A stretch of 64,000 bases of DNA from positions 96,001 through 160,000 of the forward strand of contig JBGASG010000002.1 in the NCBI GenBank assembly GCA_044229845.1, in the 5' to 3' direction. The notes under the pieces are model-generated. The model saw only the letters and a program-made list of their open reading frames with translations, was not told the DNA's origin and searched no databases. Position 1 is the stretch's first letter. Each line of letters starts with the position of its first letter. A program made the translations under genes and the position numbers. Shown here in pieces: positions 21,930 to 62,203 of the stretch. The stretch comes from Candidatus Obscuribacteraceae bacterium. Lineage in GTDB: Bacteria > Cyanobacteriota > Vampirovibrionia > Obscuribacterales > Obscuribacteraceae.

Positions 21930-21936
21930 TATCTAA

Positions 21937-22940: not shown

Positions 22941-22965
22941 GTTGATCCTGCGAAGTTGCTTACGC

Positions 22966-23448: not shown

Positions 23449-23457
23449 ATTATATCA
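23449..23457 (-). promoter_or_regulatory. Candidate internal extended -10 promoter (TGaTATAAT) upstream of atpE
   Basis: Minus strand reads TGATATAAT within the 300-bp atpB-atpE spacer; no clear -35. Confidence 0.4.
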
Positions 23458-23619
23458 AGCGCGATCTGCGCTTTTTGGCGTAAAACGGGCGTTGTAACGC
23501 CACTTTGGAATTGCTGAGCGACATTTAAAAACGCCGCGAGCAGCGCAAATCAAGAGCGCACCGTATGACAGCGGTCATCGCAGGGGAAGCGCTTCTCCGG
23601 CGGCTGTGCGCCACGCAGC

Positions 23620-24354
23620 TTAGTGGTGCTGAACAGTCAGACCGATGTAGATCGAGGTGAGCAGCGCGAATACGAAAGCTTGAATGACGCCGATAAACAT
23701 CTCGAAGCCCATGACGAACGTGGGCAAGATGAAGGGAACCATCATCAATGCGGCGGCACGCATCAATTCGTCGGCGGTGATCACCATCATCAGGCGCAAA
23801 GCCAGTGTGGCTGGGCGAATAATCAGGTCAAGCCATTCGATCGGGTTGAGGTAGAGCTTCAAGTAGCCGGCGCCGTGCGCCCAGAAACCAGCCCCCAGGT
23901 AGGTGAGAAGTGCTATGCAAGCCAATCCGAACGTGACGTTGAAATCAGTTGTCGGTGAGCAGAGTTCAAGCGGTTCGCCGTGAATATGCGGCCAACCGGC
24001 TTGTCCTTCGAAGACTTTCCAGGGACCGATGCCGATGAAGTTGGCTATTAATACAAAGATAAAGATTGCTGCAATCAGTTTTACGAACGGCTTGTACTCA
24101 TGCCCCATGTTTCCCTTGCACAAGCCTTCGATGGATTTGTAGAAACCCTCAGCCATTGCCTGCAGTGGGTTGCCCGGTCCATCCGCTGTGAGCGAGGAGC
24201 GAGCAGCGACTGCCCAGACCAGGATGATCACCATGCAAGCCCAGGAAAGACCGATGGTATCTGCGTGTACTTCGCCGAGGCTGCCGAGCGGTCCGAGCGA
24301 AACGTTCGCCGTGTCCGGAAGCAGCGTTTTCAAGGGTAGGTTATGACCGAGCAT
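23620..24354 (-). CDS. atpB: ATP synthase subunit a
   Basis: PTTDFNVT.GLA, RP.TLALRL, IQAFVF.LL..IYI. Confidence 0.95.
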   Translation of the reverse strand: MLGHNLPLKTLLPDTANVSLGPLGSLGEVHADTIGLSWACMVIILVWAVAARSSLTADGPGNPLQAMAEGFYKSIEGLCKGNMGHEYKPFVKLIAAIFIFVLIANFIGIGPWKVFEGQAGWPHIHGEPLELCSPTTDFNVTFGLACIALLTYLGAGFWAHGAGYLKLYLNPIEWLDLIIRPATLALRLMMVITADELMRAAALMMVPFILPTFVMGFEMFIGVIQAFVFALLTSIYIGLTVQHH

Positions 24355-24429
24355 CTATAAGAATCCGTCGTGTACGTCGTTGCCATGCGGCGCGAGAGAG
24401 GCGCCAGCAACGGATGATAACAGATGCCT

Positions 24430-24885
24430 TTAATCGGAATTGTCTTCCGTGAAGTGTTCGTAAGCGGCTCTCGGTGCGCTCGTGCCGCCGTCCTGCACAG
24501 CTTGTCCGTAGGCGCCCCGGTCTGTGCCCTGCTTGCCGGGCGTGGTGCCGGTTTCTGCCTCTTCGCCGGACGGCGTAGCCGTTTCTTCACCGGACAGGCT
24601 CAAGTGCGCCCCCCGTTTTCTCACGCCAGTGAGCTTTTTGCCGCTCCCGCCCGTGTCCAGAGCCATAGCTTTGACGCAAAGCCGCCAGAGTCCCAGCCCA
24701 CCACCCAGCATCGACAGCCCAAGTGACCACCAGGGCGCCGTGTGCAGCTTTTCGTCCAGCCAGTTGCCGGCAAAAACCCCGACCAGAACCAGCGCCGCGG
24801 CGCCCAGAACGCCGTCCATGACGAACATCATCGCCTTCTTGGAATTGTCGGATTTATCGGATGCTCCGGGCTCATTTGGTGTCAA
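24430..24885 (-). CDS. atpI: AtpZ/AtpI-family ATP synthase accessory protein
   Basis: G.F.G.WLD..L.T.PW motif; TTG start at 24885 with GAGGGGAG RBS. The track ORF extending to 25866 is a shadow of pspA. Confidence 0.8.
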   Translation of the reverse strand: MTPNEPGASDKSDNSKKAMMFVMDGVLGAAALVLVGVFAGNWLDEKLHTAPWWSLGLSMLGGGLGLWRLCVKAMALDTGGSGKKLTGVRKRGAHLSLSGEETATPSGEEAETGTTPGKQGTDRGAYGQAVQDGGTSAPRAAYEHFTEDNSD

Positions 24886-25083
24886 GTGCGGCTCCCCTCG
24901 CTTAATCTTTGTTTGATGATTGGGGTGAATATAGGGCGTAGTCAGGCGATCCAAACTGGGAATAACCTTAAAGGTATCTCTGTTAGACTGAAATATTGGC
25001 GGGGAATGCCTCTTTTCAGGAATACCTCTGGTCAAGAATATGCCCACCCGGGCGCCCGTTAAGGAAGGGAAGGAGTTCACAGG

Positions 25084-25842
25084 ATGTTTTCGCGCTTCAT
25101 GTCGCTCGTCCGCGCAATGTTCGGTCGTGTCATGGGTCAACTCGAAGACCCGGAAATGATGCTCGAACAGAAGTATCAAGAACTCCAATCCAACCTGATT
25201 CAAGTCCGCCAGGCTGTTGCTCAAGCCATCGCCACCGAAAAGCAACTCGAGCAGTCGTTGCAGAAGAACCGGGATCAAGCAGCCACCTGGGAAAATCGCG
25301 CCCGCATGGCGGTGCAGCAAAACAACGACGATCTGGCACGCCAGGCATTGCAACGCAAGACTCAATACTCTCAAGCCGCAGCCGATCTGGAAGCTCAACT
25401 CAATCAGCAACGCGAGCACACAGCCCAATTGCGTGAGCGCCTGACGTCGCTGGAAGGCGAAGTGCAGAAGGCTTACACAAAGAAACAAGTGCTGATCGCT
25501 CGCGACAAGGCTGCGCAGGCGACCACACGTGCCAACGAGATCATGGCAAAGACAACGTCTTCCGGCGCTATGTCGGTCATCGAACGCATGGAACAGAAAG
25601 TCGTCGAGCGCGAAGCGAAAGCCGCTGCCCTGGCTGAACTGGGCAGTGACACGCTGGACAAGAAATTCAAAGATTTCGAAGGTCAAGTCGACATCGAAGC
25701 CGAACTCATGGCCCTCAAAGGGACCATGGGCGGTCCGAAACTGATCGTGGACAACAAAGTCAAAGAACCGGTTTCGGCGCAAAAAGATGAATCGTTGTCG
25801 GTGGAAGCCGAAGACGTCACCGAGCTGGACGAGTCTAAGTAA
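25084..25842 (+). CDS. pspA: PspA/IM30 (Vipp1) family protein
   Basis: MFSRF..LVRA...LEDPE.MLEQ, DLARQAL.RK, ERMEQKV...EAKA, AEL.ALK; C-terminal tail. Confidence 0.93.
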   Translation: MFSRFMSLVRAMFGRVMGQLEDPEMMLEQKYQELQSNLIQVRQAVAQAIATEKQLEQSLQKNRDQAATWENRARMAVQQNNDDLARQALQRKTQYSQAAADLEAQLNQQREHTAQLRERLTSLEGEVQKAYTKKQVLIARDKAAQATTRANEIMAKTTSSGAMSVIERMEQKVVEREAKAAALAELGSDTLDKKFKDFEGQVDIEAELMALKGTMGGPKLIVDNKVKEPVSAQKDESLSVEAEDVTELDESK

Positions 25843-25901
25843 CGACGCGCGTTTTGCACACCACATCTGGTGATCGCCCGTACCGGAGGTTTGCAGACTA
25901 A

Positions 25902-26963
25902 ATGGCCGGCGAAGCCCTGAAGCAATTATTCAAAGCGTTGATGCACATCACGCTGTTGAAACGACTGGCGCTGTTCATGGTCTGCGTCGGCATCTATTCG
26001 ACCATCGTCGCCTTTTTCGGCAGGCATCTACCTTATAACGATGCGCTTTTGCAAACCGACTCGGCACTGTTCGTCGGCGTGATTCTCAGCGTGCTGTTGG
26101 TGTTCAGGCTGAACAGCGCTTATGAAAGGTGGTGGGAAGCCAGCAACCTCTGGGGGCAACTGATTAACGAAATTCGCAACGCCTGCTGCAAGGTGGACAG
26201 AGTGCTTTTGCTCGAACTGCGCGAGCGCGAACGCTTTGCCGTACTGATGGTGGAATTCGCCTATTCACTGAAAGACCACTTGCGGCAGGTGACCGCCGAA
26301 AGCGGTGCACCATCGGCGGTGCGGGCTGCCGGTGGCGTGGTGCGCAAACCGATGGCTGTCGTGCATGATGTCTACGCGCAGCTGGGTCGCCAGCTGCAAG
26401 CCGGCAAGATCAGCGTCGAAATGGTCGAACTGATGGACACGCACATCAAAGCGCTCGCCGACATCCTCGGCTCCTGCGAGCGCATCAGCACTTCTCCAAT
26501 TACCGCGGCCCACAAAAGTTTGCTGGCCCACATGCTCTTGATTTATGTGGCACTGTTACCCTGGTCGCTGGCGCCGGGGCTGGGTTTCTTCTCCGTGCCG
26601 GTGGTTGTGGTGGGCGTTTATCTGGTGATGGGCATGGAAGTGGTGGCAGCCGGCAACGAACATCCTTTTGGAACCGACGAGGAAGACATTCCTTTAGATA
26701 GGCTTTGCAAGACGGTTGAAACATCGGTCTTCGAATTGCTCGAGTTATCGCGACCGATTGAAGTTGTCATCTCACCCGACGATGTGGTGCAGTGGGTGGT
26801 GCCAGATGACCTGACGGACTGCCTGGCGATTCAGAAACACCATTTTGACGGTGGCGCGGACGACACGCACGGCGATCCGGGAGGAAACGGCGACGCTGCC
26901 GACACAGGCAAGGGTGCAGTCGCGTCGGTGTATGATGACCCGCTGGCTGATTTGAGATCCTGA
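25902..26963 (+). CDS. Bestrophin-like (YneE/UPF0187) anion channel
   Basis: LLVFRLNSAYERWWEA..LWG, GSCERI..SP, EHPFG.D..DIPLD. Confidence 0.9.
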   Translation: MAGEALKQLFKALMHITLLKRLALFMVCVGIYSTIVAFFGRHLPYNDALLQTDSALFVGVILSVLLVFRLNSAYERWWEASNLWGQLINEIRNACCKVDRVLLLELRERERFAVLMVEFAYSLKDHLRQVTAESGAPSAVRAAGGVVRKPMAVVHDVYAQLGRQLQAGKISVEMVELMDTHIKALADILGSCERISTSPITAAHKSLLAHMLLIYVALLPWSLAPGLGFFSVPVVVVGVYLVMGMEVVAAGNEHPFGTDEEDIPLDRLCKTVETSVFELLELSRPIEVVISPDDVVQWVVPDDLTDCLAIQKHHFDGGADDTHGDPGGNGDAADTGKGAVASVYDDPLADLRS

Positions 26964-27021
26964 TTGAATTGCCCTGAACACTTTACGTCATCGGTTCCCC
27001 AACTATATAAAGAGATCACCA

Positions 27022-29973
27022 TTGAGCCCCGCCAGCAACGCCGACCAGATCAGAAAGACGCTCTTCAAACTGGGCGAAACAAAAGACCCCGAGCAATTCA
27101 ATCAAGCTGCGGAAGCGGCACTTATCATGCTGAAATCGCAAAGCGAGCCGATTCCGAAAGACTGCTGCTCCACCCTGCAGGCGGTACTGCGGCGGCTGGG
27201 GGAATTTAAGAACATTGAGCTGCTCGACAAGTACGGAACTCTCATATCGGCACAAGTCTATCCCCATATTCCGGATGCGGAGCTGCGCGCGGCGGTCAAG
27301 GTGTGCGTCGATAAAATGCGCGCACGGCGCGTCGAAGATCCGGTCGCCGTAGCCGGACTCTATGCTGGTCTTCTGAAAGAGGCTCTGGTACCAAAACCGG
27401 CAACCGCAGGCGCGTGTCTCAATTATTTCATTGCCCTGGCGGAGGAGTTCACCGATCGCGACGACACCGATGATGTCGATGTGATTTATCTAGCTGCCGT
27501 CGATATCTCGATGCGTTTAAACGGCAAAAACTGCACCGAGACCGCCGATTCGTACGAGTTTTTGGGACTATGCTACAGAAACCAGGGCTATTACGAAGAC
27601 GCCTACACAGCCCTCCAACAAGCCAGAGGCATTCAGGAAGAATTGTTGAAATCGGACGCCGTCGATCCATCGTCTCATTACGACGTGCTGCTGACCATAT
27701 GCGATGTCGCCCGCCAGGGCGGGTTTCCGGAGAAAACTCAAGACGTTTTTCAGTTGCTAAAAAAGCTCAGCGAGGAAAACAAGCTGCCATCTAAATTGCA
27801 GGCGCAGTTGCACGGCATGCTCGGGCGCCAGGCCCAGGAGGAAGGCGACGAGGCTGACGCCATCGAGTCTTTTAAGCGCGCCCTGGAAGCGCTGCGCGAG
27901 ATGCCGGAAGACAAAGCCGCGCTCGAGCGTCAGCGCATCGCCATCTCGCTGGCGCGCGTCTACTCCAACTTGAACGAACCGGCGCTCGTCGAAAAGTACT
28001 ATTCGGAAGCGCTGAGCGTCATGGATAAGATTGCTCGCCTGCATGCGGACGAAGTCTCTGACAACATGTATTACATTGCTTGTTTCTTCAGCGATCGCCA
28101 TGACTACCGGCGCGCGGAAGAATTGCTCAAGCAGTCGCTGAAGCTGAAACGGCAGGCTGCCAAACACAGATATGTCGAACTGGAATTGATCGAACGCGAA
28201 CTGGCCACCGTTCGCAAATTGGTCGAAGAAAATTCCAAGCGCGATGCGCGCAGCCTCGAACATCTGCTGGGCGAAATCGAAGGCATGGTCGGTCTGGAAG
28301 AGCTTAAGAAAGCTTTGCGCGAACATGGTGTCTATCTGGACTTTTTGCGACTGCGTAAGGAACGCGGTTTTGAGTCGGTGGAAAATCCGGTACTGCATGC
28401 GGTGTTCATGGGCAATCCCGGAACCGGCAAAACAACTGTCGCAAAGTTACTCGGCGAGGTTTACTACAAGCTGGGATTGCTATCCTCAGGGCATGTGCAC
28501 ACAGTCGTACGCGCCGATTTGATCGGAGCTCAATACGGCGCCGGAGAGAAGGGCGCGCGCCGCGCGCTGGATGCCGCCAGAGGCGGTGTGCTGTTCATAG
28601 ATGAAGCCTACACGCTTTCTCGTCACTATCGCGAAGGCGATGTGGACGGACGAGACCCGGGGCAGGAAGTGATCGAAACACTGCTGCCCGTCATGTCCAA
28701 CCCGGGCGCCGACATCGCCATCGTGGTGGCAGGGTATCCCACCGAGATGGAGGCTTTTCTCGGGTCCAATCCGGGCTTGCGTTCGCGTTTTAAATTGTTT
28801 TTCGACTTCCCAGACTACACACCTCCGGAGATGCTGGAGATTGCCGTCACCGCCGCCAAGCGACACGACCTCACCTTCTCCGACGAAGCGCGCGAACTGT
28901 TTCTTGAAGCGCTCGAAGATGTCTATCGCAAGCGTGACCGTACGTTCGGCAATGCCCGCCACGTCATGTCACTGATCGATGATTGTAAGCGCGCGATGGC
29001 GCTGCGCATCATGCGCTCTTCAAAGCTCAATCTTTTGACCAACGAACAGATCTCTGTGGTGTCCGCGGAGGACGTCCGCAAAGTGACCGGCATCAAACGC
29101 AAAGCCGGCCCTTACTGCGCCCCGCTCGACGAAAAGATGCTGGCGCAGAGCCTCGCCCAGCTGGATGCGCTGGTCGGTCTCGATAACTTGAAAGCCTTCG
29201 TGCGCGACACCGTAAAAGTGGTGCGCGTCTACCGCGAACTTGGCAAGGACGTGCTTTCGGCATTGAAGTTCAACCTGGTGTTCGCCGGCAATCCCGGCAC
29301 GGGCAAGACGGTGGTGGCACGCATCATCAGCGACGTCTACAAGGCGCTCGGCATACTGGAGCGCGGACATCTGGTCGAAACAGATCGTTCCGGGCTGGTC
29401 GGCAAGTACATCGGCGATTCGGAAGCGCAAACCAAAGCCAAGATCGAAGAAGCGATGGGCGGCGTATTGTTTGTAGATGAAGCTTATGCGCTGATGGGCG
29501 AAGGCAACGACTTCGGTGCTCGCGTGATCGAAGTTTTGCTCAAGCAGATGGAAGACCAGCGCGGCAAGTTCTTCTGCATATTCGCGGGTTATCGCAAGGA
29601 AATGCAGCAGTTTATGGATGCCAATCCGGGGCTGCGTTCGCGCATCGACAAAGTGCTGGACTTCGAAGATTACACAACTGCGCAGCTGGAAGAGATAACC
29701 GTGGCTATGCTGAAAGCGCAGGACCTGTCTGTCGACGAAGAAGCCTGCAAGGCCCTGCGCCAAAAACTCGCCTCTATAAAAGACTCGAAGGGTTTCGCCA
29801 ATGCTCGCTCATGCCGCAATCTGGTGGAGCGCATCGCACTCAGGCATTTCGCGTCTCTCGCCGATATACCAACCGACGAACGCACCGCGGCGGTGCTCAC
29901 AACCGTCACAGCGCGTACCGTGGAAGAAACCGAACTGAGCGACCTGGCAGTCAAACGCCCGGTGGGCTTTTAG
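27022..29973 (+). CDS. TPR + tandem CbbX/SpoVK-type AAA+ ATPase
   Basis: Two GNPGTGKT Walker A and LF(I/V)DEAY Walker B motifs, NPGLRSR twice, F(G/A)NAR twice, C-terminal VGF. Confidence 0.92.
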   Translation: MSPASNADQIRKTLFKLGETKDPEQFNQAAEAALIMLKSQSEPIPKDCCSTLQAVLRRLGEFKNIELLDKYGTLISAQVYPHIPDAELRAAVKVCVDKMRARRVEDPVAVAGLYAGLLKEALVPKPATAGACLNYFIALAEEFTDRDDTDDVDVIYLAAVDISMRLNGKNCTETADSYEFLGLCYRNQGYYEDAYTALQQARGIQEELLKSDAVDPSSHYDVLLTICDVARQGGFPEKTQDVFQLLKKLSEENKLPSKLQAQLHGMLGRQAQEEGDEADAIESFKRALEALREMPEDKAALERQRIAISLARVYSNLNEPALVEKYYSEALSVMDKIARLHADEVSDNMYYIACFFSDRHDYRRAEELLKQSLKLKRQAAKHRYVELELIERELATVRKLVEENSKRDARSLEHLLGEIEGMVGLEELKKALREHGVYLDFLRLRKERGFESVENPVLHAVFMGNPGTGKTTVAKLLGEVYYKLGLLSSGHVHTVVRADLIGAQYGAGEKGARRALDAARGGVLFIDEAYTLSRHYREGDVDGRDPGQEVIETLLPVMSNPGADIAIVVAGYPTEMEAFLGSNPGLRSRFKLFFDFPDYTPPEMLEIAVTAAKRHDLTFSDEARELFLEALEDVYRKRDRTFGNARHVMSLIDDCKRAMALRIMRSSKLNLLTNEQISVVSAEDVRKVTGIKRKAGPYCAPLDEKMLAQSLAQLDALVGLDNLKAFVRDTVKVVRVYRELGKDVLSALKFNLVFAGNPGTGKTVVARIISDVYKALGILERGHLVETDRSGLVGKYIGDSEAQTKAKIEEAMGGVLFVDEAYALMGEGNDFGARVIEVLLKQMEDQRGKFFCIFAGYRKEMQQFMDANPGLRSRIDKVLDFEDYTTAQLEEITVAMLKAQDLSVDEEACKALRQKLASIKDSKGFANARSCRNLVERIALRHFASLADIPTDERTAAVLTTVTARTVEETELSDLAVKRPVGF

Positions 29974-55500: not shown

Positions 55501-56520
55501 ATGTCTGTCGACGATATGATGAAGTACGCCGAGATTGCGGCGCCGTGTTCCGCCACGTGGGACGAAATGACCGGCGACGACAAGATGCGATTTTGCGGTG
55601 AGTGCAAACTGCACGTTCTGAATGCGGCGGCGATGACGGATGAGGAAGTGATGCGTGCGCTGCAACGAACGCTGACCGGTGAGCGAGTCTGCATGCGGCT
55701 TTACCGGCGCGATGACGGAACGTTTCTTACCCGGAACTGTCCGAAAGGACTGCAGCTGATTCGGCAACGCGCTCAGCAAGCGGTTCGCCGAGTGGCGGCA
55801 CTGTTTTCCGGCACGCTCGCTCTGGTTATGACGTGCGCCGCCAGCGCCGCTCCGGGCAACAGCAACAACAAGCCGATCTGGCATTCCATAGTGCAAGGCG
55901 CGCCGGCGCAGGCTCCGAAGGGTCCGGCGTCGACGGGCGCGGCGAATGTGACGCCGGTGGTTCCGCGTACCTATTTTGCGCACGAGCGCATGGGACGCAT
56001 GAAGATGTGGACCGCCGAAGAGATCAAGCAACAAGAGACGAAACTTGCTCAGCTCAAGAAAAGCGGTGCATCGAAGGCAGAGATAGTGAAGCAGCTGGAG
56101 TTTCTTGCCGGCATCTGCCGCTACACAACTGGCACTGACGGCACCATGTCTGCCACGCAAGCACGCGCCGAAGCGCTGAAGCTGTACGAAGAGATGGGCG
56201 ACTGGACCAAAGCGGCGGAAACCAGTCGCAGTCTGTCGGAACTGTATCTCGCCGGACCGCACGAAAACCCGGCTAAAGCCGCCGAGTACAGGCTGAAAGC
56301 TGACCAATATTTTGTGCGCATCGCTTCGAAGAAACAGGACGAGGACAAACGCATCGCGACGGCATTGATAGAAGTGGAGAAGAACAAGGACTGGACGAAG
56401 GGCAACACGCTCTGCGCAGACGCAGCCGATGCCGCTCAAACCGCCAAAGAAACCGAGCGCTTCAATCACTGGTCGGACCGCGCCGACATGTACGCGCGGT
56501 ATATGAGAAACCCGCGCTAG
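55501..56520 (+). CDS. Hypothetical protein with N-terminal Cys-rich motif, an internal TM/signal segment and a helical C-terminus
   Basis: PCSATWDEM.GD...RFC..C...V...C.R.YRR.DGT.LT..CP. Confidence 0.75.
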   Translation: MSVDDMMKYAEIAAPCSATWDEMTGDDKMRFCGECKLHVLNAAAMTDEEVMRALQRTLTGERVCMRLYRRDDGTFLTRNCPKGLQLIRQRAQQAVRRVAALFSGTLALVMTCAASAAPGNSNNKPIWHSIVQGAPAQAPKGPASTGAANVTPVVPRTYFAHERMGRMKMWTAEEIKQQETKLAQLKKSGASKAEIVKQLEFLAGICRYTTGTDGTMSATQARAEALKLYEEMGDWTKAAETSRSLSELYLAGPHENPAKAAEYRLKADQYFVRIASKKQDEDKRIATALIEVEKNKDWTKGNTLCADAADAAQTAKETERFNHWSDRADMYARYMRNPR

Positions 56521-56536: not shown

Positions 56537-57037
56537 TTATTGCGCGTTGTTCTGGTTTTCGACCAGGCGTTGCGTCTGAATCTGAAAATCCATCGGCGCA
56601 CCCAGACCTGGAATGCCCGGGAAAAACGGAATCGTCAAGAACGGGCGAATGCGAACCCTGGTGGTGACGCGCACTTCCATATCTTGCCGCTTCTGCGTGT
56701 CGGTCGTGCCGACCACATAGTCGACTTGCGTGTTTACTGGTTGCTGCAGCCCGACGAAATTGCCGATGCCCTTTGACTTCCAGTCGTCAGGGATCTTCTT
56801 GCAGACAGTGCCGTTGGGATCCTGCGCTTCCTTTTTAGGTAGCAAAGCCGCTTCGCGCAGTTGCAAGTCGTTCAGCGTCGCGCACGAGAAATAAGCAGCG
56901 CTCATGGCCACCAGGTCGAGCAGCGGAAAGAACAGCATCAGCAGCAGGATGAAGATAGCGGGACCGGTTTCGGCGATGGTTCCGCCGAAGGTGCTGCGTC
57001 TTCTTTTCATGCGTCGGGCGCGGCTGTCCTTGATCAT
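56537..57037 (-). CDS. TadE-like pseudopilin
   Basis: RRRSTFG|GTIAE, hydrophobic helix, REAA. Confidence 0.7.
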   Translation of the reverse strand: MIKDSRARRMKRRRSTFGGTIAETGPAIFILLLMLFFPLLDLVAMSAAYFSCATLNDLQLREAALLPKKEAQDPNGTVCKKIPDDWKSKGIGNFVGLQQPVNTQVDYVVGTTDTQKRQDMEVRVTTRVRIRPFLTIPFFPGIPGLGAPMDFQIQTQRLVENQNNAQ

Positions 57038-57201
57038 GATGATGAACTTTATCCTATGCGTTTGGTCGGTGGACCGGGCTGGCGTGTGCCGCCAGTTAGA
57101 ATTACTGTCAGTTCGGTGATTTTAGCGGTGCATGACCGCACACCGACCAAGCGTCCAGATTGTGCACCCCTCAGACTCCCACGTCAAGCGGATTTCCTTC
57201 T

Positions 57202-57702
57202 ATGACTGCACCATGCACGGAACATGAGTTCATCGTCTCTGCTCAGGACTATCAGATCTATCTACAAGATGAAAAAGCAGAAACCGAATTTAGCGAAACG
57301 ATGCACGACGAATTAGTCCAGGACTTGTTTTCCATCGGCGATCGCATCGTTGCTATTGGCACCGTGCGTCCCACCGAAGTGCAGGTCGTCATCGAATGCG
57401 TTGAAGAAGAACCGGAAGATGAAGATCTGGAAGACTGGGATCAAGTGGTGGAATGCAGTCTTGATGTGCCATCGGGAACGCTGGTGATCACCAACAATAT
57501 CGAGAGCTTCGACATGGCGGCGCGGGTGCAATTGAATGCACCAGGCGTTTATCGCTTGCGCATTTTCTACGGAATGCTCGATGAAGTCGATGACGAAGGT
57601 TTTGAAGGCGACGACTTCTATAAAGTGGTGCTCTGGCCGGATTCGATGCAAGAGCCGAAGATGTTGAAGAAGTGGTTCCCGTCACTCAACTTCGAACCGT
57701 AG
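57202..57702 (+). CDS. Highly acidic hypothetical protein
   Basis: DWDQVVECSL.VPSG.L, PG.YRLRI, D.Y..VLWP; typical codon usage. Confidence 0.7.
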   Translation: MTAPCTEHEFIVSAQDYQIYLQDEKAETEFSETMHDELVQDLFSIGDRIVAIGTVRPTEVQVVIECVEEEPEDEDLEDWDQVVECSLDVPSGTLVITNNIESFDMAARVQLNAPGVYRLRIFYGMLDEVDDEGFEGDDFYKVVLWPDSMQEPKMLKKWFPSLNFEP

Positions 57703-57707
57703 AACGG

Positions 57708-57735
57708 TGGACACAAAACGCGTTCGCGCTATAAT
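57708..57735 (+). promoter_or_regulatory. Sigma70-type promoter TGGACA-N16-TATAAT for the leader/tRNA unit
   Basis: Perfect -10 at 57730-57735 and a 5/6 match to -35 at 57708-57713. Confidence 0.7.
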
Positions 57736-57744
57736 GAGATCACT

Positions 57745-57804
57745 ATGAACAAGAACCTGACACTACGACTTAGCCTCCCACTGCGCCTATATTATTTAGG
57801 TTAG
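57745..57804 (+). CDS. Candidate Leu/Tyr-rich leader peptide MNKNLTLRLSLPLRLYYLG (nearly leaderless)
   Basis: ATG 9 nt after the -10 box; 7 Leu codons (CTG, CTA, CTT, CTC, CTG, CTA, TTA) plus TAT TAT; lies directly upstream of Leu and Tyr tRNA genes. Confidence 0.6.
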   Translation: MNKNLTLRLSLPLRLYYLG

Positions 57805-57892
57805 GCAGTAGGCTTCGCGCGTATTTGTGATCCGGTCAATTTCATAGAAAGGATTCCGCTCTCTTATCGCGTAGAAGCCGCTTGCACGGCTT
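57772..57892 (+). promoter_or_regulatory. Candidate attenuator with mutually exclusive helices
   Basis: Helix 1:2 pairs 57772-57789 with 57797-57814, helix 2:3 pairs 57811-57821 with 57868-57879, and helix 3:4 pairs AAGCCG 57875-57880 with CGGCTT 57887-57892. There is no long U-tract. Confidence 0.45.
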
Positions 57893-57904
57893 AAACCAGC
57901 GCAC

Positions 57905-57982
57905 GCCCGTGTGATGCAACTGGCAGACATCGCCGTCTTAAAAACGGTGTTTCTGGTGGTTCGAATCCACTCACGGGCACCA
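57905..57982 (+). tRNA. trnL: tRNA-Leu(TAA), short variable loop, encoded CCA
   Basis: Cloverleaf with acceptor GCCCGTG/CACGGGC, anticodon TAA at 57939-57941, TTCGAAT T loop and A73. Confidence 0.9.
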
Positions 57983-57985
57983 CAT

Positions 57986-58062
57986 GCCGACGTGATGCAA
58001 CTGGCAGACATCCTCGCCTCAGAAGCGCGGTTCTGGTGGTTCGAATCCACTCGTCGGCACCA
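57986..58062 (+). tRNA. trnL: tRNA-Leu(CAG), short variable loop, encoded CCA
   Basis: Acceptor GCCGACG/CGTCGGC, anticodon CAG at 58020-58022, one mismatch in the anticodon stem. Confidence 0.88.
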
Positions 58063-58064
58063 TC

Positions 58065-58141
58065 GCCGGTGTGATGCAATTGGCAGACATCGATAGCTCA
58101 AACCTATCGTCTTGGTGGTTCAACTCCACTCACCGGCACCA
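58065..58141 (+). tRNA. trnL: tRNA-Leu(CAA), short variable loop, encoded CCA
   Basis: Acceptor GCCGGTG/CACCGGC, anticodon CAA at 58099-58101, TTCAACT T loop. Confidence 0.9.
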
Positions 58142-58144
58142 CTG

Positions 58145-58220
58145 GCCGACGTGATGCAATGGCAGACATCGTTGATCGAGAATCAACGTCCTGGTGGTTC
58201 GAGTCCACTCGTCGGCACCA
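58145..58220 (+). tRNA. trnL: tRNA-Leu(GAG) with C33, short variable loop, encoded CCA
   Basis: Acceptor GCCGACG/CGTCGGC; anticodon stem GTTGA/TCAAC with loop TC-GAG-AA. Confidence 0.82.
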
Positions 58221-58278
58221 CTTTTTCAAATCACCCTGAACCAATATGAGGAAGAAACTTGAATACGGAGAAACGACC

Positions 58279-58368
58279 CGGCGGGTGAAGCCGAGTTGGT
58301 CGAAGGCGCCGTCCTGTAAAGTCGGACTCGCAAGAGTTAACACGTAGGTTCGAATCCTACCCCGCCGA
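58279..58368 (+). tRNA. Atypical tRNA-Tyr(GTA)-like gene
   Basis: Acceptor CGGCGGG/CCCGCCG, anticodon GTA at 58316-58318, long variable arm ACTC-GCAA-GAGT, T arm GTAGG-TTCGAAT-CCTAC. Atypical features are C1:G72 and a 4-nt linker before the D stem. Confidence 0.7.
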
Positions 58369-58436
58369 ATCGTTTCACCATGGACTCTGCTACCATGAAC
58401 AGGTAGTCATACCGTCTCAAGTTAAGGCGAGTTCAG

Positions 58437-59231
58437 ATGCAAATGAGTAATCGCAGAAATTCGATGCCCCCGAGCGCAAAACAGGCACAGGCAGCAGGTT
58501 TTGCCGGACTGTGCCTATCGCTTTTGCTGAGCAGCGTGTTGCCCGCGGCAGCCAATGTCATTCCGGGCGGCACGGGTATTTCCTTCGGGCAGAACCATTC
58601 CTTCATTCTTAAGGCGCCTCCTGGCTGGTCGTTAGATACCGATGCCGGCGCCCAGCAAAATCTGCAGGCGGTCTTCTATCCCGACGAGTCGGACTGGGAC
58701 GGTCCCGTCGCCATGTACACCGAAGTAGATGCGCGCGAGGGCATGGGTCTCGATGCGGCGATTCAAGCTGATATTCAGGACATGAAGACAGACACGCCAG
58801 GACTTAAGGTCAGCGACGGCGGCACCGCGCCGACCGGCGACGGCAAGACCGCCACAATCAAGTATTTCAGCGGCAGCAAAGACGGCAGTTTCGAAGCCAT
58901 CGGCTACGTGCTCGAAAAGAATGTCGTCATCAACATCATTCTCACTGCCCGCAGCAAAGCGCAGTTCGATGGTGCGCTTCCGACTTTCCGCAAGCTGGTT
59001 GGTTCCTATAAATACCTGACCGACAATCCGAAGGGCGCCGATCTGAAAGCGCTCGCCAAGGCAGCCGGTGCCAAACCGACGCCGGGAGCGGAAGAATCCG
59101 GTGATACCGGATCTGGTGGCGGCACCACCACGGCTCCACGTAGCGGCGGCACAGGTTCCGCGAGTACCGGCACCACACCTGCCACCACCAAGCCGTCGAT
59201 CGGCAAACCCGTCACCAAAGACGATTTCTAA
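58437..59231 (+). CDS. Secreted hypothetical protein with Gly/Thr/Pro-rich tail
   Basis: Signal peptide; LKAP.GW motif; helical end F...LP.F..LV.SY. Confidence 0.75.
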   Translation: MQMSNRRNSMPPSAKQAQAAGFAGLCLSLLLSSVLPAAANVIPGGTGISFGQNHSFILKAPPGWSLDTDAGAQQNLQAVFYPDESDWDGPVAMYTEVDAREGMGLDAAIQADIQDMKTDTPGLKVSDGGTAPTGDGKTATIKYFSGSKDGSFEAIGYVLEKNVVINIILTARSKAQFDGALPTFRKLVGSYKYLTDNPKGADLKALAKAAGAKPTPGAEESGDTGSGGGTTTAPRSGGTGSASTGTTPATTKPSIGKPVTKDDF

Positions 59232-59239
59232 TAAGCCTC

Positions 59240-60427
59240 TTAGAGCGAGACCTGGTTCCACGGATCGTACGGGTCCTGCTCGTCCCACCATGGCTTGACC
59301 GGCTGCGGATTGAGAAGTTTATTCGCCATCTCTTCGTATTGAGCGGCCGGTTTGACGGCGCCCTGCTGACGCAAAAGCGATGCATAGTATTTGTAGACCA
59401 CGCCTTTTTGCGTATCGGTGAACCAATCACTATATTGGCTCAATGAGTTCAACGCGGCGGGAAACTGATTCGCGGCAGCGGCTTTATCACCAGCGAGCAA
59501 GCTGGCAAACGGCAGCATCAGCCTCGCCTTCTCATGCTCGTAGCTGGTCAATTGATCATAACCGGCAGGCGGGCTGTCGAGCACGAATCGCCAGTAGCGC
59601 AGCGCCCCACTATACGCGCCGGCGGCCATCGCGTTTTCTGCGGATTTGCAAACCGCGGATAGCCCGGCTTGCTCATCGTACTTTCCAAATCGGGGAGGCG
59701 GCTCCAACGAGGGATGGCTGTCATCAAGAAATCGGGCTCGATCAATGAGCTCTTCCACGCGTTTGGCGTCGTCCTGTCGATCGGCATGCAAGTACGCAAG
59801 TTGGATCAATTCGAACTCTGGAATCCGCGAGGGTCCATACGGCTGATCGATGGCGCCGAACCACTCATCGGCAACTTGCGCCGCCTTTTGCCATTGCTTC
59901 TGGTCAAGCCTCAGACCCAGCTCGGAATATGTGATGGCAGCATTGGGATAGTCGTCGCCTCCTCGTGCGTCGTCTAAACAAGACTCAGCGCCCTTGACGT
60001 TGCCTACCCACAAATAGTAATTGGCAATATCCATGTTGGCCGCGTTGAGCGTGGCGGGCAGAATTATTCCGCGTGCCAGTCGCAGTTTTAGTTTCAGCAA
60101 CGTCACGGCATCGCCTGTCTTCGGAACATCGCCGAGATAGCCAATATTCCTGGGCGTCTCGCTGACAGGTCCAATCAGGTAATTAGTAACGGACAAAACT
60201 GCGGCCAACACAATTGCGATGATCGCCAGTCCAAGATCCCCGGCTCTTCCGGGCTTGTTCTTTTTCTTCGGTCCCTCCTTCTTGCCCGTCGGCGACGATG
60301 CGGCAGGGGTAGCAGCCGATGTCGGCGCAGGTTGCGGCTCGTCCGACTCAGTCTCGCGGGGCGACTCCTTCAACTCGACAGAGTCGATACCGTCCGTGGT
60401 GTCCGGCTTGAAGGGCTTCGGATCCAT
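59240..60427 (-). CDS. Single-TM hypothetical protein with TPR-like helices
   Basis: 395-aa ORF with one TM segment and a GAGG RBS, co-oriented downstream of rnj. Confidence 0.7.
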   Translation of the reverse strand: MDPKPFKPDTTDGIDSVELKESPRETESDEPQPAPTSAATPAASSPTGKKEGPKKKNKPGRAGDLGLAIIAIVLAAVLSVTNYLIGPVSETPRNIGYLGDVPKTGDAVTLLKLKLRLARGIILPATLNAANMDIANYYLWVGNVKGAESCLDDARGGDDYPNAAITYSELGLRLDQKQWQKAAQVADEWFGAIDQPYGPSRIPEFELIQLAYLHADRQDDAKRVEELIDRARFLDDSHPSLEPPPRFGKYDEQAGLSAVCKSAENAMAAGAYSGALRYWRFVLDSPPAGYDQLTSYEHEKARLMLPFASLLAGDKAAAANQFPAALNSLSQYSDWFTDTQKGVVYKYYASLLRQQGAVKPAAQYEEMANKLLNPQPVKPWWDEQDPYDPWNQVSL

Positions 60428-60445: not shown

Positions 60446-62203
60446 CTAGCGAGCGGGTATGTTATTGCGGCTGAACGAGACTTCCTGAATCAAAAGTTGC
60501 ACGAGTGGCGTAAGCTTCATATTTTGCGCGAAGTGTTTATTGATGGCGCCCAGAACGTATTGGCGCAAATCGTCGCCCGACAGCTTCGACAGCACTGCCT
60601 TATTTTGCAAAATCTCGGTGACGTCGGCTTTCAGCTGATTGATGAAGTCTTCGGGAAGCACGCCGCGTGGCAAAATCAAACCGCGAATGGAGATGTCGGG
60701 ACCGGCAACAATGTCGCGTTCTTTGGTGAGTGTCAAAACTATGTTGACCACGCCGTCTTCAGCGAGCAACAAACGTTCTTCCACAGTTTGCCAGTGAATT
60801 TCCCAGGACCCATTAGAATCGATGAGCACGATGCCGGCATCGATGCTGCCAATCTTAGATCCGCCGTCCTTGCGCAGTTCAAGCACATCACCGTTTTCCA
60901 GAACGAAGGTGTTCTCGCGCGCAACACCGCACTCGACTGCGAGTTCCGCGTGCTTCACGAGCATGCGAAATTCACCGTGGATAGGAATGAAATACTTCGG
61001 TTTGCAAAGGTTGATCATCAACTTCTGTTCTTCGCGGCAAGCGTGTCCGGACACGTGCACGCCGGAATCGCGACCGTAGATAACCTCCGCGCCACGCACG
61101 AACAATTTGTTGATCGTGTTGGCGATGGAACGCTCGTTGCCGGGAATCGGAGTCGCCGACACGATCACCGTGTCGCCACGGGCGATTTTGATTTGCTTGT
61201 GTTCGTCGCGCGCAATACGGCTCAGCGCTGACAGCGGCTCGCCCTGGCTGCCGGTGGTGAGAATGACGACTTTGTCGTGCGGCAGGTTGACGGTTTCTTC
61301 CACGCGAATAATCAGCCCGTCGGGGAACGTCATGTAACCGAGTTCTCGCGATATGTTGGCGAGGTTGAGCATCGAGCGTCCAAGGATCGCTACCTTGCGG
61401 TCGTATTTGATAGCCGCCTGCAATATCTGGCGAATACGGTGCACGTTGCTGGCGAAGGTGGTGACGATAATGCGCTTCTTCGCGTTGGCGAAGACTTCAT
61501 CGAGTTTCTTCCAGACAGATCTCTCTGAGGGTGTGTGCCCGGCGCGCTCGGTGTTGGTGCTGTCGCTGAGCAGGGCGAGAATGCCATCTTCAGCCGCGGC
61601 TGCCAGACTGGCGATGTCGTACTGTTCGCCGTCGACCGGCGTAAAGTCGAACTTGAAGTCGCCGGTGTGCACCACAGCACCAACCGGTGTGTGAATGATC
61701 AAACTGAAAGAGTCGGCAATCGAATGTGTGCAACGAATGAATTGCACGTTGAAGCAACCGACCTTCACTATTTGACGCGGGCGCACCTGGCGCATGACGG
61801 TGCGATCTTCGAGCCCGTATTCTTTGAATTTCTCTTCCAGAAGACCCAGTGCCAGTGCCGGTCCGTAGATAACCGGACAGTCGACTTCGCGCAGAATTTG
61901 CGGCACGCCACCGATGTGGTCTTCGTGTCCATGCGTGATCAAAAGCGCCTTCAGCTTGCTGGCATGTTCTTTGATGAATGAAATGTCGGGCAGCACGATG
62001 TCGACGCCCAGCATATCCTCTGAAGGAAACGCCAGTCCGGCATCGACCAGAATCATGTCGTTGCCGTACATGATGGCCATCGTGTTCTTGCCGATTTCAC
62101 CCAGTCCGCCAATGGGGATGATCTTCAATCCATTGGGTGAGCCGAGTTGTCCGCCGTTATTGATGGCGGCGTTGGGTTGTTTGCTATGGCGTTCGCTGGT
62201 CAC
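60446..62203 (-). CDS. rnj: Ribonuclease J
   Basis: GGLGEIGKN, THGHEDHIGG, HTGDFKFD, TGSQGEP, HVSGHA. Confidence 0.97.
   Translation of the reverse strand: MTSERHSKQPNAAINNGGQLGSPNGLKIIPIGGLGEIGKNTMAIMYGNDMILVDAGLAFPSEDMLGVDIVLPDISFIKEHASKLKALLITHGHEDHIGGVPQILREVDCPVIYGPALALGLLEEKFKEYGLEDRTVMRQVRPRQIVKVGCFNVQFIRCTHSIADSFSLIIHTPVGAVVHTGDFKFDFTPVDGEQYDIASLAAAAEDGILALLSDSTNTERAGHTPSERSVWKKLDEVFANAKKRIIVTTFASNVHRIRQILQAAIKYDRKVAILGRSMLNLANISRELGYMTFPDGLIIRVEETVNLPHDKVVILTTGSQGEPLSALSRIARDEHKQIKIARGDTVIVSATPIPGNERSIANTINKLFVRGAEVIYGRDSGVHVSGHACREEQKLMINLCKPKYFIPIHGEFRMLVKHAELAVECGVARENTFVLENGDVLELRKDGGSKIGSIDAGIVLIDSNGSWEIHWQTVEERLLLAEDGVVNIVLTLTKERDIVAGPDISIRGLILPRGVLPEDFINQLKADVTEILQNKAVLSKLSGDDLRQYVLGAINKHFAQNMKLTPLVQLLIQEVSFSRNNIPAR

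What the first reader, a model, noticed from the sequence alone, without database searches (positions are those of the whole stretch)
57708..58380. Candidate leader-peptide attenuator controlling a backup tRNA-Leu/Tyr cassette
Seen: a TGGACA-N16-TATAAT promoter is followed 9 nt later by an unannotated 19-codon ORF, MNKNLTLRLSLPLRLYYLG (57745-57804). Leu occupies alternating positions and uses five different codons (CTG, CTA, CTT, CTC, CTG, CTA, TTA), and the run includes TAT-TAT. About 100 nt downstream are four tRNA-Leu isoacceptors and one tRNA-Tyr-like gene, the same two amino acids. The leader can form mutually exclusive helices. Helix 1:2 (AGCCT/AGGCT, ACTGC/GCAGT, CCTA/TAGG) covers the Leu codons. 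Helix 2:3 pairs GGCTTCGCGCG 57811-57821 with CGCGTAGAAGCC 57868-57879. Helix 3:4 (AAGCCG/CGGCTT, 57875-57892) lies just before the first tRNA. Established: this layout is how ribosome-mediated attenuators of amino-acid operons work. Inference: stalling on any Leu or Tyr codon, through starvation or tRNA cleavage by toxins or anti-phage nucleases, would switch on replacement tRNAs. I do not know of codon-sampling attenuation of tRNA genes themselves. Caveats: helix 3:4 lacks a long U-tract, so control could be Rho-dependent or act at processing, and no tRNA-Leu(TAG) for the two CTA codons is present.
Basis: partly seen in the sequence, partly recalled or inferred. Interest (0 to 1): 0.9.

Follow-up and report, generated by a model that had tools for sequence, protein, structure and literature searches.

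The report
Ribosome-read leader before spare tRNA genes
A tiny, conserved gene written mostly in leucine and tyrosine codons sits with a two-state RNA switch in front of a cluster of spare, oddly shaped leucine and tyrosine tRNA genes, so the cell probably gauges its tRNA supply by how fast ribosomes read that tiny gene.

Summary
The organism is an Obscuribacterales bacterium, from a non-photosynthetic sister group of cyanobacteria.

The four "tRNA-Leu" genes are spare copies beside canonical ones. They are short-armed (type I) and are the only tRNA genes here that encode CCA.

A covariance model of the leader matched 21 of 107 genomes of the order.
- **Open frame:** the small ORF stays open at 16-24 codons, 6-9 nt after the -10 box, with no Shine-Dalgarno.
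- **Codons follow cargo:** 6-8 Leu before Leu arrays, and 1-3 Leu before a lone spare tRNA-Tyr, a mixed array or a phosphoesterase gene. The Tyr-only leaders carry 2-3 Tyr.
- **RNA switch:** a hairpin over the ORF's 3' half competes with a long-range helix, and both show compensatory changes.
- **Expression:** RNA contigs from three studies cover the leader, with no cover upstream. Contigs from one of these studies join it to the tRNAs.

Against the reading, only 4 of 13 leaders have a consensus terminator. This window has none, and Rho was not found. The sensor is well supported; the output step is open.

I found no published account. Earlier AI notes of this scan describe the same logic in other genomes.

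The parts
57708..57735 (+). Sigma-70-type promoter: TGGACA (57708-13), 16-nt spacer, TATAAT (57730-35).
   Evidence: scores it 11 of 12. Homologous leaders have a -10 box, often TGn-extended, 9 nt before the ATG in 9 of 11 (8 nt in L015, 6 nt in L028). RNA contigs give no cover at 57300-57755 and begin at 57756/57757.
57745..57804 (+). Leader ORF of 19 codons, MNKNLTLRLSLPLRLYYLG. It has no Shine-Dalgarno, and the predicted 5' UTR is about 3 nt (leaderless-type).
   Evidence: The ORF is conserved at 16-24 codons in 20 distinct homologs, with ATG at model position 1. Leu positions are kept through synonymous CTN/TTR changes.
57772..57814 (+). It spans the 3' half of the ORF, the stop codon and 10 nt beyond.
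   Evidence: RNAalifold consensus. 89% of cells pair and 4 pairs show compensatory change, with 0 of 500 shuffles as high for cells paired. With 21 sequences: 82% paired and 8 of 16 pairs compensatory.
57811..57879 (+). Long-range helix P2 (helix 2:3): GGCTTCGCGCG 57811-21 pairs with CGCGTAGAAGCC 57868-79 and encloses 46 nt.
   Evidence: 94% of cells pair in 10 leaders, and 2 pairs show compensatory change. It forms in constrained folds when the ORF is masked. Its 5' strand is the 3' arm of P1's outer stems.
57875..57892 (+). Hairpin 3:4, AAGCCG/CGGCTT. It overlaps the 3' strand of P2 by 5 nt and has no U-tract after it.
   Evidence: The scan does not call it a terminator.
57905..57982 (+). 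Type-I (short variable loop) tRNA with Leu anticodon UAA, encoded CCA.
   Evidence: (43.5 bits).
57986..58062 (+). Type-I tRNA with Leu anticodon CAG, encoded CCA. It is lost in the same-genus relative G001.
   Evidence: (40.2 bits).
58065..58141 (+). Type-I tRNA with Leu anticodon CAA, encoded CCA.
   Evidence: 41.2 bits.
58145..58220 (+). Type-I tRNA with Leu anticodon GAG, encoded CCA.
   Evidence: 43.4 bits.
58222..58226 (+). Run of five T just after the last Leu tRNA; likely end of the Leu operon.
   Evidence: An RNA contig ends at 58238, and nothing covers 58240-58324.
58279..58368 (+). tRNA-Tyr-like gene with anticodon GTA at 58316-18 and a long variable arm. Its acceptor stem is CGGCGGG/CCCGCCG (C1-G72), the discriminator is A, and no CCA is encoded. 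The D arm is irregular and the anticodon stem has a T-T mismatch.
   Evidence: Rfam gives 39.8 bits in a slightly different register, 58281-58366. ARAGORN misses it. It is homologous to the array tRNA-Tyr genes of L015, L016, L020, L021 and L027.

Best explanation
This is a ribosome-read leader, an attenuator-like switch, that controls a small operon of spare tRNA genes.

**Proposed sequence of events:**
1. Transcription starts about 3 nt before the ATG.
2. A ribosome translates the 19-codon leader, whose Leu codons (five different ones) and Tyr codons are those the downstream tRNAs serve.
3. When decoding is quick, or when no ribosome is present, the 3' half of the ORF folds back on the stop-codon region (P1). 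This holds the segment GGCT(TCG...), and the small 3:4 hairpin forms.
4. When a ribosome waits on the Leu or Tyr codons, P1 cannot form. The freed segment pairs with its distant partner (P2), and 3:4 is lost.
5. That second state should raise output of the tRNA array.

**Shown here:**
- The ORF is conserved, and its codons follow the cargo.
- The two competing helices are conserved.
- The tRNAs are spare copies of canonical genes.
- The leader is transcribed together with the tRNAs.

**Inferred:**
- The ORF is translated.
- Stalling flips the fold.
- The flip changes tRNA yield.

The output step is transcription termination in at least two lineages of relatives, which have a hairpin plus U-tract. 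In this window it is unknown. It may be weak termination, processing or RNA stability.
For: **Homologs.** Covariance model R1 of the leader matched 21 of 107 genomes of the order, all in one family.

**The frame stays open.**
- Twenty distinct leaders keep ATG at model position 1 and an in-frame stop at the homologous place.
- ORF lengths are 16, 17, 18, 19 or 24 codons after Met.
- Leu positions persist through CTN/TTR synonymous changes.

**Codons follow cargo.**

| Cargo | Leaders | Leu codons | Tyr codons |
|---|---|---|---|
| Leu arrays | 9 | 6-8 | 0-2 |
| Single spare tRNA-Tyr | 6 | 1-3 | 2-3 |
| Mixed array G020a | 1 | 2 | 1 |
| G020b (no tRNA detected behind) | 1 | 3 | 1 |
| Phosphoesterase gene | 3 | 2-3 | 0-1 |

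- The Leu counts of the 9 Leu-array leaders do not overlap those of the other 11 (Mann-Whitney p = 7e-5, not corrected for kinship).
- The G020a leader precedes Gln, Pro x3, Ser, Arg x3, Leu x4 and Tyr tRNAs. Its peptide is MNNFRQPRPSLPQRLYR, and 13 of 16 residues belong to those amino acids (P = 1.5e-4).
- Among 8 complete Leu arrays, Tyr codons go with presence of a tRNA-Tyr in 7.

**RNA structure.**
- P1: 82-89% of cells pair, 4-8 pairs show compensatory change, and 0 of 500 shuffles reach the observed value for cells paired and for cells with a change on both sides. Slid controls give 11-45% paired.
- P2: 94% of cells pair.
- P1's outer stems and the 5' strand of P2 are the same nucleotides.
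- Constrained folds switch as predicted for the window, L028, L020 and L021. The free fold shows P1 plus 3:4. Masking the ORF to codon 10 gives P2 without 3:4. Masking to the stop codon restores 3:4.

**Terminators in relatives.** A consensus terminator that overlaps the 3' strand of P2 occurs in L020 and L021. A consensus terminator further downstream occurs in L044 and L048.

**Expression.**
- RNA contigs of 3 runs from 3 studies start at 57756/57757 and end at 57895-57903.
- Contigs from two runs of one of these studies bridge the leader to the tRNAs (57840-58137 and 57866-57998).
- No run covers 57300-57755.

**The tRNAs are spare and under selection.**
- Canonical long-arm tRNA-Leu genes with the same four anticodons, and a canonical tRNA-Tyr, lie elsewhere in the genome.
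- 49 distinct type-I tRNA-Leu sequences pair in 98.5% of cells, and 17 of 18 pairs show compensatory types.
Against: - **No terminator here.** This window has no U-tract after hairpin 3:4, and the scan calls no terminator between the ORF and the first tRNA.
- **Few terminators overall.** Only 4 of 13 leaders scanned have a consensus terminator on the leader strand. Those four come from two lineages.
- **No Rho.** Rho was not found in this 88%-complete assembly.
- **Small overlap.** In this window P1 and P2 share only 4 nt. The outer CGAC/GTCG stem seen in most relatives is missing.
- **Unfavourable free folds.** For L027, L022, L015 and L029 the unconstrained fold already contains P2.
- **Weak start signal.** There is no Shine-Dalgarno, and translation would need leaderless-type initiation on a roughly 3-nt 5' UTR.
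- **Some residues fixed by RNA.** The L-R of CTGCGCC and the final G-stop lie in P1 stems, so RNA pairing alone could fix them.
- **Few independent events.** Leaders and cargos are inherited together, so the codon-cargo match rests on about four independent switches.
- **Exceptions.** G007 has one Tyr codon and no tRNA-Tyr. The window's leader has two CTA codons but no tRNA-Leu(TAG).
- **Not always a tRNA cargo.** The same leader family also precedes a protein gene.
- **Limits of contigs.** RNA contigs cannot fix 5' or 3' ends or expression levels.
Confidence: 0.6

Rival explanations
1. The leader is a general sensor of translational stress rather than a codon-specific one. Any slowing of ribosomes, for example by antibiotics or starvation, flips the switch. 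Spare tRNAs are one of several outputs, and the Leu/Tyr bias only tunes sensitivity.
For: - The same leader family precedes a phage-type phosphoesterase gene (phrog_547, E = 1e-51) in G001, G106 and G007. Those leaders are not rich in any one amino acid.
- The cyanobacterial L-array of Anabaena is induced by ribosome-targeting antibiotics together with rtcB (PMC8421152, passages read).
Against: - The separation of Leu counts by cargo (6-8 against 1-3) is hard to explain without codon-specific selection.
- So are the recoding of the G020 leader to Pro/Gln/Arg and the Tyr enrichment before lone tRNA-Tyr genes.
Confidence: 0.2
2. The switch works after transcription. The fold of the leader (P1 or P2) sets how well the precursor is cut by RNase P or other RNases, or how long it lives. 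It does not set whether RNA polymerase stops.
For: - 9 of the 13 leaders scanned, including the window, have no terminator, and no Rho was found.
- In G020 the place of P2 is taken by the acceptor stem of a real tRNA-Gln that starts 9 nt after the stop codon. There the ORF competes directly with folding of the first tRNA.
- RNA contigs of the leader end at 57895-57903, next to the expected RNase P site at 57904/57905.
Against: - Clear terminators that overlap the 3' strand of P2 exist in L020 and L021.
- No processing signal was identified.
- Contigs cannot place RNA ends.
Confidence: 0.12
3. The ORF is not translated. The conserved region is only a structured 5' leader of the tRNA precursor, and the codon pattern is a by-product of RNA pairing and shared descent.
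For: - There is no Shine-Dalgarno.
- Nucleotide conservation in the core ACGACTTAGCCTCC.ACTGCGCC is high, third codon positions included.
- Part of the peptide is fixed by P1 stems.
- Independent cargo switches are few.
Against: - ATG lies at a fixed distance from the -10 box.
- All length changes keep the frame; the ATG-to-stop distances I read from the alignments fall into five length classes, all multiples of three.
- Leu positions are kept by synonymous codons from both codon families.
- Changes at second codon positions in G020 turn Leu into Pro or Gln exactly where those tRNAs join the array.
Confidence: 0.06

Closest known systems
Leader-peptide transcription attenuators of amino-acid operons (trpL, leuL, hisL, thrL, pheL, ilv leaders)
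   Same: A short ORF in the 5' leader is enriched in the codons that report on the regulated product. Competing helices are set by ribosome position. In some relatives a terminator overlaps the 3' strand of the anti-terminator helix.
   Different: - The regulated genes are tRNAs, so the product feeds straight back on the sensor.
- The Leu codons alternate and are drawn from five or six different codons, rather than a run of one.
- Initiation is leaderless-type with no Shine-Dalgarno.
- There is no terminator in this window or in most homologs.
- No Rfam leader family matches.
- How these classical operons work is stated from general knowledge, not from a paper read here.
Long tRNA arrays (L-arrays) of cyanobacteria: the Anabaena PCC 7120 trn operon (PMC8421152; PMC10272220)
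   Same: Supernumerary tRNA genes in tandem, in the wider cyanobacterial lineage, tied to the state of translation.
   Different: - The Anabaena operon has 26 genes and is repressed through direct repeats over the -10 box and start site (the TrcR repressor).
- Neither paper contains the words leader, attenuat-, small ORF or uORF.
- Here there are 4-13 genes. The repeat motif has no match at the promoter. Control appears to sit in the transcript.
Type-I tRNA-Leu(CAA) of Streptomyces coelicolor (PMC6614811; abstract and section 19 read)
   Same: A bacterial tRNA-Leu with a short variable loop coexists with long-arm tRNA-Leu, and there is a single LeuRS gene.
   Different: - Here a whole set of 4-6 isoacceptors is type I, arranged in tandem and duplicating canonical genes.
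- A73 is kept in 44 of 49.
- Charging is untested. The paper reports that other prokaryotic LeuRSs it tried did not charge type-I tRNA-Leu.
T-box leaders of Firmicutes
   Same: A 5' leader that reports on tRNA status and gates downstream expression.
   Different: - T-boxes bind uncharged tRNA directly and control synthetase or amino-acid genes (general knowledge).
- There is no Rfam T-box match.

Membership tests
Leader-peptide (ribosome-mediated) transcription attenuator | Short ORF in the 5' leader, conserved as an ORF | tested here: met
   Twenty distinct homologs keep the ATG, the frame and the stop, at 16-24 codons. Translation itself is not testable with these tools.
Leader-peptide (ribosome-mediated) transcription attenuator | Regulatory codons that match the regulated product | tested here: met
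   Leaders before Leu arrays have 6-8 Leu; other leaders have 1-3. Leaders before a lone tRNA-Tyr have 2-3 Tyr. In the G020a leader 13 of 16 residues are array amino acids.
Leader-peptide (ribosome-mediated) transcription attenuator | Mutually exclusive helices 1:2, 2:3 and 3:4 | tested here: met
   P1 and P2 share nucleotides: 4 nt in the window and about 10 nt in most relatives. P2 and 3:4 share 5 nt in the window. Pair counts are, and constrained folds.
Leader-peptide (ribosome-mediated) transcription attenuator | Helix 3:4 is an intrinsic terminator (hairpin plus U-tract) before the regulated genes | tested here: not met
   None in the window. Present in 4 of 13 leaders scanned: L020, L021, L044 and L048.
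Leader-peptide (ribosome-mediated) transcription attenuator | Expression responds to supply of the cognate charged tRNA | not testable with these tools
   Needs reporter, Northern or Term-seq experiments.
Rfam leader and T-box families | Match to a curated covariance model | tested here: not met
   Only five tRNA matches at E up to 1 in 57000-59000.
Cyanobacterial L-array (Anabaena trn operon type) | Tandem supernumerary tRNA genes | tested here: met
   Four type-I tRNA-Leu 2-4 nt apart, duplicating the canonical anticodons.
Cyanobacterial L-array (Anabaena trn operon type) | Long array (the Anabaena operon has 26 genes; up to 43 reported) | tested here: not met
   5 genes here; 3-13 in relatives.
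Cyanobacterial L-array (Anabaena trn operon type) | Direct repeats over the -10 box and start site (motif given in PMC8421152) | tested here: not met
   With up to 2 mismatches the window has 5 matches against 5.6 expected by chance, and none at 57700-57745.
Type-I bacterial tRNA-Leu | Short variable loop with tRNA-Leu-like D loop and discriminator | tested here: met
   Length is 73-76 nt without CCA. I read variable loops of 5 and 6 nt in the window's CAG and UAA tRNAs and the D-loop motif AAYTGGCAGAC from the sequences. A73 is kept in 44 of 49.
Type-I bacterial tRNA-Leu | Charged with leucine by the host LeuRS | not testable with these tools
   One LeuRS gene was found (232.8 bits). Charging needs an assay.

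The most novel reading that the evidence does not exclude
One RNA switch has been re-coded again and again to match its cargo. It is Leu-rich before Leu arrays, Tyr-rich before a spare tRNA-Tyr, and Pro/Gln/Arg-rich before a mixed array. This would give bacteria direct feedback, codon family by codon family, from ribosome speed to tRNA gene output. The cargo tRNAs are built differently from the housekeeping set: type-I Leu, C1-G72 Tyr and encoded CCA. They could therefore keep working when the normal class-II tRNAs are damaged, depleted or targeted.
Probability: 0.3. Interest if true: 0.9.

Novelty: new variant of a known kind. Interest (0 to 1): 0.8.

Why it matters
Leader-peptide attenuation is a textbook way to sense charged tRNA, but its known outputs are amino-acid synthesis and synthetase genes. 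Here the output is the tRNA itself, which would close the shortest possible feedback loop on decoding capacity.

This family is well suited to testing the idea:
- It has about 20 distinct natural variants.
- They fall into four cargo types.
- There are natural re-codings of the sensor.
- There are versions with and without a terminator.

It also shows that sets of type-I tRNA-Leu exist in bacteria as regulated spares. That bears on how LeuRS recognises its tRNA. It also bears on why cyanobacterial relatives carry extra tRNA genes.

Tried and rejected
- **Helix P2 as a decayed tRNA.** Its 5' strand resembles the 5' acceptor strand of the G020 tRNA-Gln by eye. Rfam tRNA gave no match there at E up to 10 in 7 loci or at E up to 1 in the window. 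It stays an unproven idea.
- **Rho-dependent control.** No Rho RNA-binding domain was found in G000 (the assembly is 88% complete).
- **A second LeuRS for the odd tRNAs.** There is one strong hit only; three weaker hits score 22-39 bits.
- **A conserved partner gene.** Flanking ORFs differ among loci. A GNAT acetyltransferase lies upstream in L028 and L029 only. The window's neighbours have no Pfam match apart from RNase J.
- **Phage origin.** One viral contig matched the tRNA signature (L030), but ARAGORN found no tRNA in it and R1 did not match it.
- **Other metagenome loci.** L023 and L025 matched the pattern but hold no tRNA. L024 and L026 hold short-Leu arrays from other organisms with small upstream ORFs, but R1 does not match them. 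I did not pursue them.
- **L027 terminator.** My hand-read terminator did not pass the scan's criteria.
- **Depth in RNA contigs.** It was not used to rank expression, and uncovered stretches are not taken as absence, except as the in-call control noted above.
- The table was then computed from stored files instead.
Full report
**What is in the window**

The promoter TGGACA-N16-TATAAT lies at 57708-57735 and matches 11 of 12 consensus positions. Nine nt after the -10 box, the ORF MNKNLTLRLSLPLRLYYLG runs from 57745 to 57804.

ARAGORN finds four tRNAs with Leu anticodons:
- UAA, 57905-57982
- CAG, 57986-58062
- CAA, 58065-58141
- GAG, 58145-58220

Rfam's tRNA model confirms them at 40-43 bits. 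It adds a fifth tRNA with anticodon GTA and a long variable arm at 39.8 bits. No other Rfam family matches 57000-59000 at E up to 1.

No run of T follows helix 3:4, and the terminator scan calls nothing between the ORF and the first tRNA.

**The tRNAs are unusual spares**

The four Leu tRNAs are 76-78 nt long with CCA included. They have no long variable arm but keep a tRNA-Leu-type D loop and A73.

The 5.16-Mb assembly has 22 contigs and is 88% complete. It also holds canonical 80-85-nt tRNA-Leu genes with the same four anticodons and a canonical tRNA-Tyr. No tRNA-Leu(TAG) was found anywhere in it.

Of the roughly 50 tRNA genes that ARAGORN calls, only these four encode the 3' CCA. One LeuRS gene is present.

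Across all loci gathered, 49 distinct type-I tRNA-Leu sequences cover all Leu anticodons:
- 98.5% of stem cells pair.
- 17 of 18 pairs show compensatory types.
- A73 is present in 44 of 49.

They are therefore maintained as tRNAs.

The Tyr-like gene is best read as 58279-58368, with acceptor stem CGGCGGG/CCCGCCG and discriminator A. It is homologous to the tRNA-Tyr genes that end other arrays, but its D arm and anticodon stem are irregular.

A type-I tRNA-Leu beside type-II ones, charged by a single LeuRS, is described for Streptomyces coelicolor (PMC6614811; abstract and section 19 read).

**Who has it**

Record titles of matching contigs name Candidatus Obscuribacterales MAGs, with one labelled Planktothrix.
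- The tRNA signature found 8 loci in the species-genome collection.
- It found 7 metagenome loci, 5 of which hold tRNAs.
- It found one viral contig with no tRNA in it.

A covariance model of the leader (R1) matched 21 of 107 genomes of the order. All matches lie in one family: 20 of 103 there and 0 of 3 in the other.

**The small ORF is conserved as an ORF**

All homologs except one broken copy (G007c, MNKV*) keep ATG at model position 1 and an in-frame stop inside the 3' arm of hairpin P1. ORF lengths are 16-24 codons after Met. The distances I read from ATG to the conserved stop fall into five length classes, all multiples of three.

The -10 box lies 9 nt before the ATG in 9 of 11 leaders, 8 nt in L015 and 6 nt in L028. 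By my reading of those sequences, an A sits where a start site is expected. No Shine-Dalgarno is present. The message would therefore be leaderless or nearly so; this is inferred.

Leu positions persist through synonymous changes across both codon families. Single leaders use four to six different Leu codons.

**Its codons follow the cargo**

Sequences were read from stored files.

| Cargo | Leaders | Leu codons | Tyr codons |
|---|---|---|---|
| Leu arrays | 9 | 6-8 | 0-2 |
| Single tRNA-Tyr (two genera) | 6 | 1-3 | 2-3 |
| Two G020 leaders | 2 | 2-3 | 1 |
| Phosphoesterase gene | 3 | 2-3 | 0-1 |

The Leu counts do not overlap between the first row and the rest (Mann-Whitney p = 7e-5, with no correction for kinship).

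I left these rows out of the count:
- G001a, which is identical to the window.
- L017, whose start is masked.
- L046 and L049, which are identical to rows used.
- L051, L052 and L054, which are near-identical g21 variants.
- L059, which is broken.

Further points:
- The leader-linked tRNA-Tyr is a second copy. The canonical Thr-Tyr-Thr cluster is present in all 5 genomes checked.
- In G020 the array holds Gln, Pro x3, Ser, Arg x3, Leu x4 and Tyr. Its leader reads MNNFRQPRPSLPQRLYR. Thirteen of 16 residues are array amino acids, against a background of 0.34 (P = 1.5e-4).
- By my reading, its codons CGC, CGA, AGA, CCA, CCG, AGT, CAA and TAT each have a matching anticodon in that array.
- Among the 8 complete Leu arrays, Tyr codons and a tRNA-Tyr go together in 7. 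G007 is the exception.
- These contrasts rest on about four independent cargo switches, so the p-values overstate the evidence.

**The RNA switch**

RNAalifold predicts a hairpin (P1) that pairs the 3' half of the ORF with the stop-codon region and the following 10-15 nt.
- On 11 leaders, 89% of cells pair and 4 pairs carry compensatory changes. None of 500 shuffles reaches the observed share of paired cells. Slid controls give 11-45%.
- On 21 leaders aligned to the model, 82% pair and 8 of 16 pairs are compensatory, with 0 of 500 shuffles on three measures. That alignment leans towards the structure.

One compensated position is the third base of the Ser codon (AGC/AGT), which co-varies with G/A after the stop.

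A long-range helix (P2, GGCTTCGTC with GACGAAGCC) pairs in 94% of cells in 10 leaders. Most of its variation is one-sided, and 2 pairs are compensatory.

The 5' strand of P2 is the 3' arm of P1's outer stems, so the two exclude each other. In the window the overlap is only 4 nt, because the outer CGAC/GTCG stem is missing.

Constrained folds behave as an attenuator would for the window, L028, L020 and L021. For L027, L022, L015 and L029 the free fold already contains P2.

**The output step is unresolved**

The scan finds a consensus terminator on the leader strand between the ORF and the cargo in 4 of 13 leaders:
- L020 and L021, where it overlaps the 3' strand of P2.
- L044 and L048.

The window and 8 others have none. 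Rho was not found.

In G020 a real tRNA-Gln starts 9 nt after the stop codon, and its acceptor stem takes the place of P2. The switch may therefore act on folding or processing of the precursor in some loci.

**Expression**

Twenty runs from 10 studies, of sludge, activated sludge, biofilm, bioreactor and fermentation metagenomes, hold at least part of the stretch. Six of them are RNA libraries.

I laid the contigs of four RNA runs from three studies:
- No run covers 57300-57755.
- Leader contigs run from 57756/57757 to 57895-57903 in three runs from three studies.
- Contigs at 57840-58137 and 57866-57998, from two runs of one study, join the leader to the tRNAs.
- One contig ends at 58238, after the T-run that follows the fourth tRNA.

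Contigs cannot fix RNA ends or levels. The left boundary is a weak hint that fits the predicted promoter. The data do show that the ORF region is part of the transcript.

**Comparison with what is known**

The Anabaena L-array is controlled through promoter repeats and the TrcR repressor. Neither PMC8421152 nor PMC10272220 contains the words leader, attenuat-, small ORF or uORF. That repeat motif has no match at this promoter.

Three full-text searches for leader-peptide or attenuator control of tRNA genes listed no such paper. The library lacks most subscription journals.

This scan's own earlier AI notes describe the same logic. 87 notes hold the search words, in at least 78 genomes. The 8 shown concern phages (6), an Asgard archaeon and one other genome. 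They are unchecked leads and not support.

**Verdict**

The reading as a ribosome-read sensor matched to its tRNA cargo is well supported by comparison. The claim of transcription attenuation is supported in two lineages of relatives and open for this window.

Noticed in passing
L057 825-1415 (-) in G001 (same genus as the window); L058 1822-2418 (+) in G007; L045 1-387 (-) in G106: The same leader family (ORFs MINRLTIRTSFQLRLNPNRG, MNTRLTIPTSIQLRANRG and MINSLKIKTSFQLRLYPTRG, followed by P1 and P2) precedes a Shine-Dalgarno site and a gene for a protein of about 197-199 aa. The protein matches phrog_547 'phosphoesterase' (E = 1e-51 and 5e-47). It has no Pfam or NCBIfam family over threshold. 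A role in RNA repair is only a guess.
   Followed up: partly
G020 contig C54, about 21300-28600: More than 20 Rfam tRNA matches lie within about 7 kb. G020 has 94 tRNA matches in all. This looks like a long tRNA array of the L-array kind, separate from the leader-linked 13-gene array on C56.
   Followed up: no
L015, L017, L018, L020 and L021, in the spacer between P2 and the first tRNA: A conserved GGAGGTGAT motif (GGGGGTGAT in L021) sits in the spacer; from general knowledge it resembles an extended Shine-Dalgarno. In L017 and L018 a 10-codon ORF follows it (MLDCDLGCDI / MLDCDLRNEI). The window lacks the motif. It could be a second small ORF or a pairing partner.
   Followed up: no
L026 (ORF 84 nt upstream of the first tRNA) and L024 (ORF that runs into tRNA-Pro): Two metagenome contigs from other, AT-richer organisms carry short-armed tRNA-Leu in arrays (Leu/Tyr/Leu/Leu and Pro/Leu/Leu/Leu). 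Small upstream ORFs rich in the same amino acids precede them (MTKTNPFRYYNRLRLLHNRISNSL and MGNYLLLPNPRPQVLHHHLL...). Model R1 does not match them, so they may be independent analogues.
   Followed up: partly
L028 786-1229 (+) and L029 1049-1558 (+): A GNAT acetyltransferase gene (Pfam Acetyltransf_1, E = 1e-15 and 1e-18) lies directly upstream of the leader in two metagenome loci, but not in the window or the other loci.
   Followed up: partly
Window 57986-58062 compared with L002/L019 (G001): The same-genus relative has an almost identical leader but lacks the CAG tRNA. The junction looks like recombination between neighbouring tRNA copies. One RNA contig (X18) likewise shows a variant in which the third tRNA is followed directly by the post-array sequence.
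   Followed up: partly
G000 C1:107857-107954 and C18:362027-362112: ARAGORN calls a 98-nt 'tRNA-???' with a four-base anticodon and an 86-nt 'tRNA-Asp'. Both are probably false calls. A tRNA-Sec is called at C1:34428-34524.
   Followed up: no
Window 60446-62203 (-): An RNase J gene (beta-CASP domain, E = 5e-51) lies 2 kb downstream of the array. The other neighbours (57160-57702, 56537-57037, 55501-56520, 59240-60427) have no Pfam match.
   Followed up: partly
L016 4926-5005 (-) in G020, the upstream leader copy G020b: A second copy of the leader (MNRRLQLRPSYPQRLRK) lies about 630 nt upstream of the functional one. The sequence after it resembles the tRNA-Gln, but neither ARAGORN nor Rfam calls it a tRNA. 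It is probably a decayed duplicate unit.
   Followed up: partly
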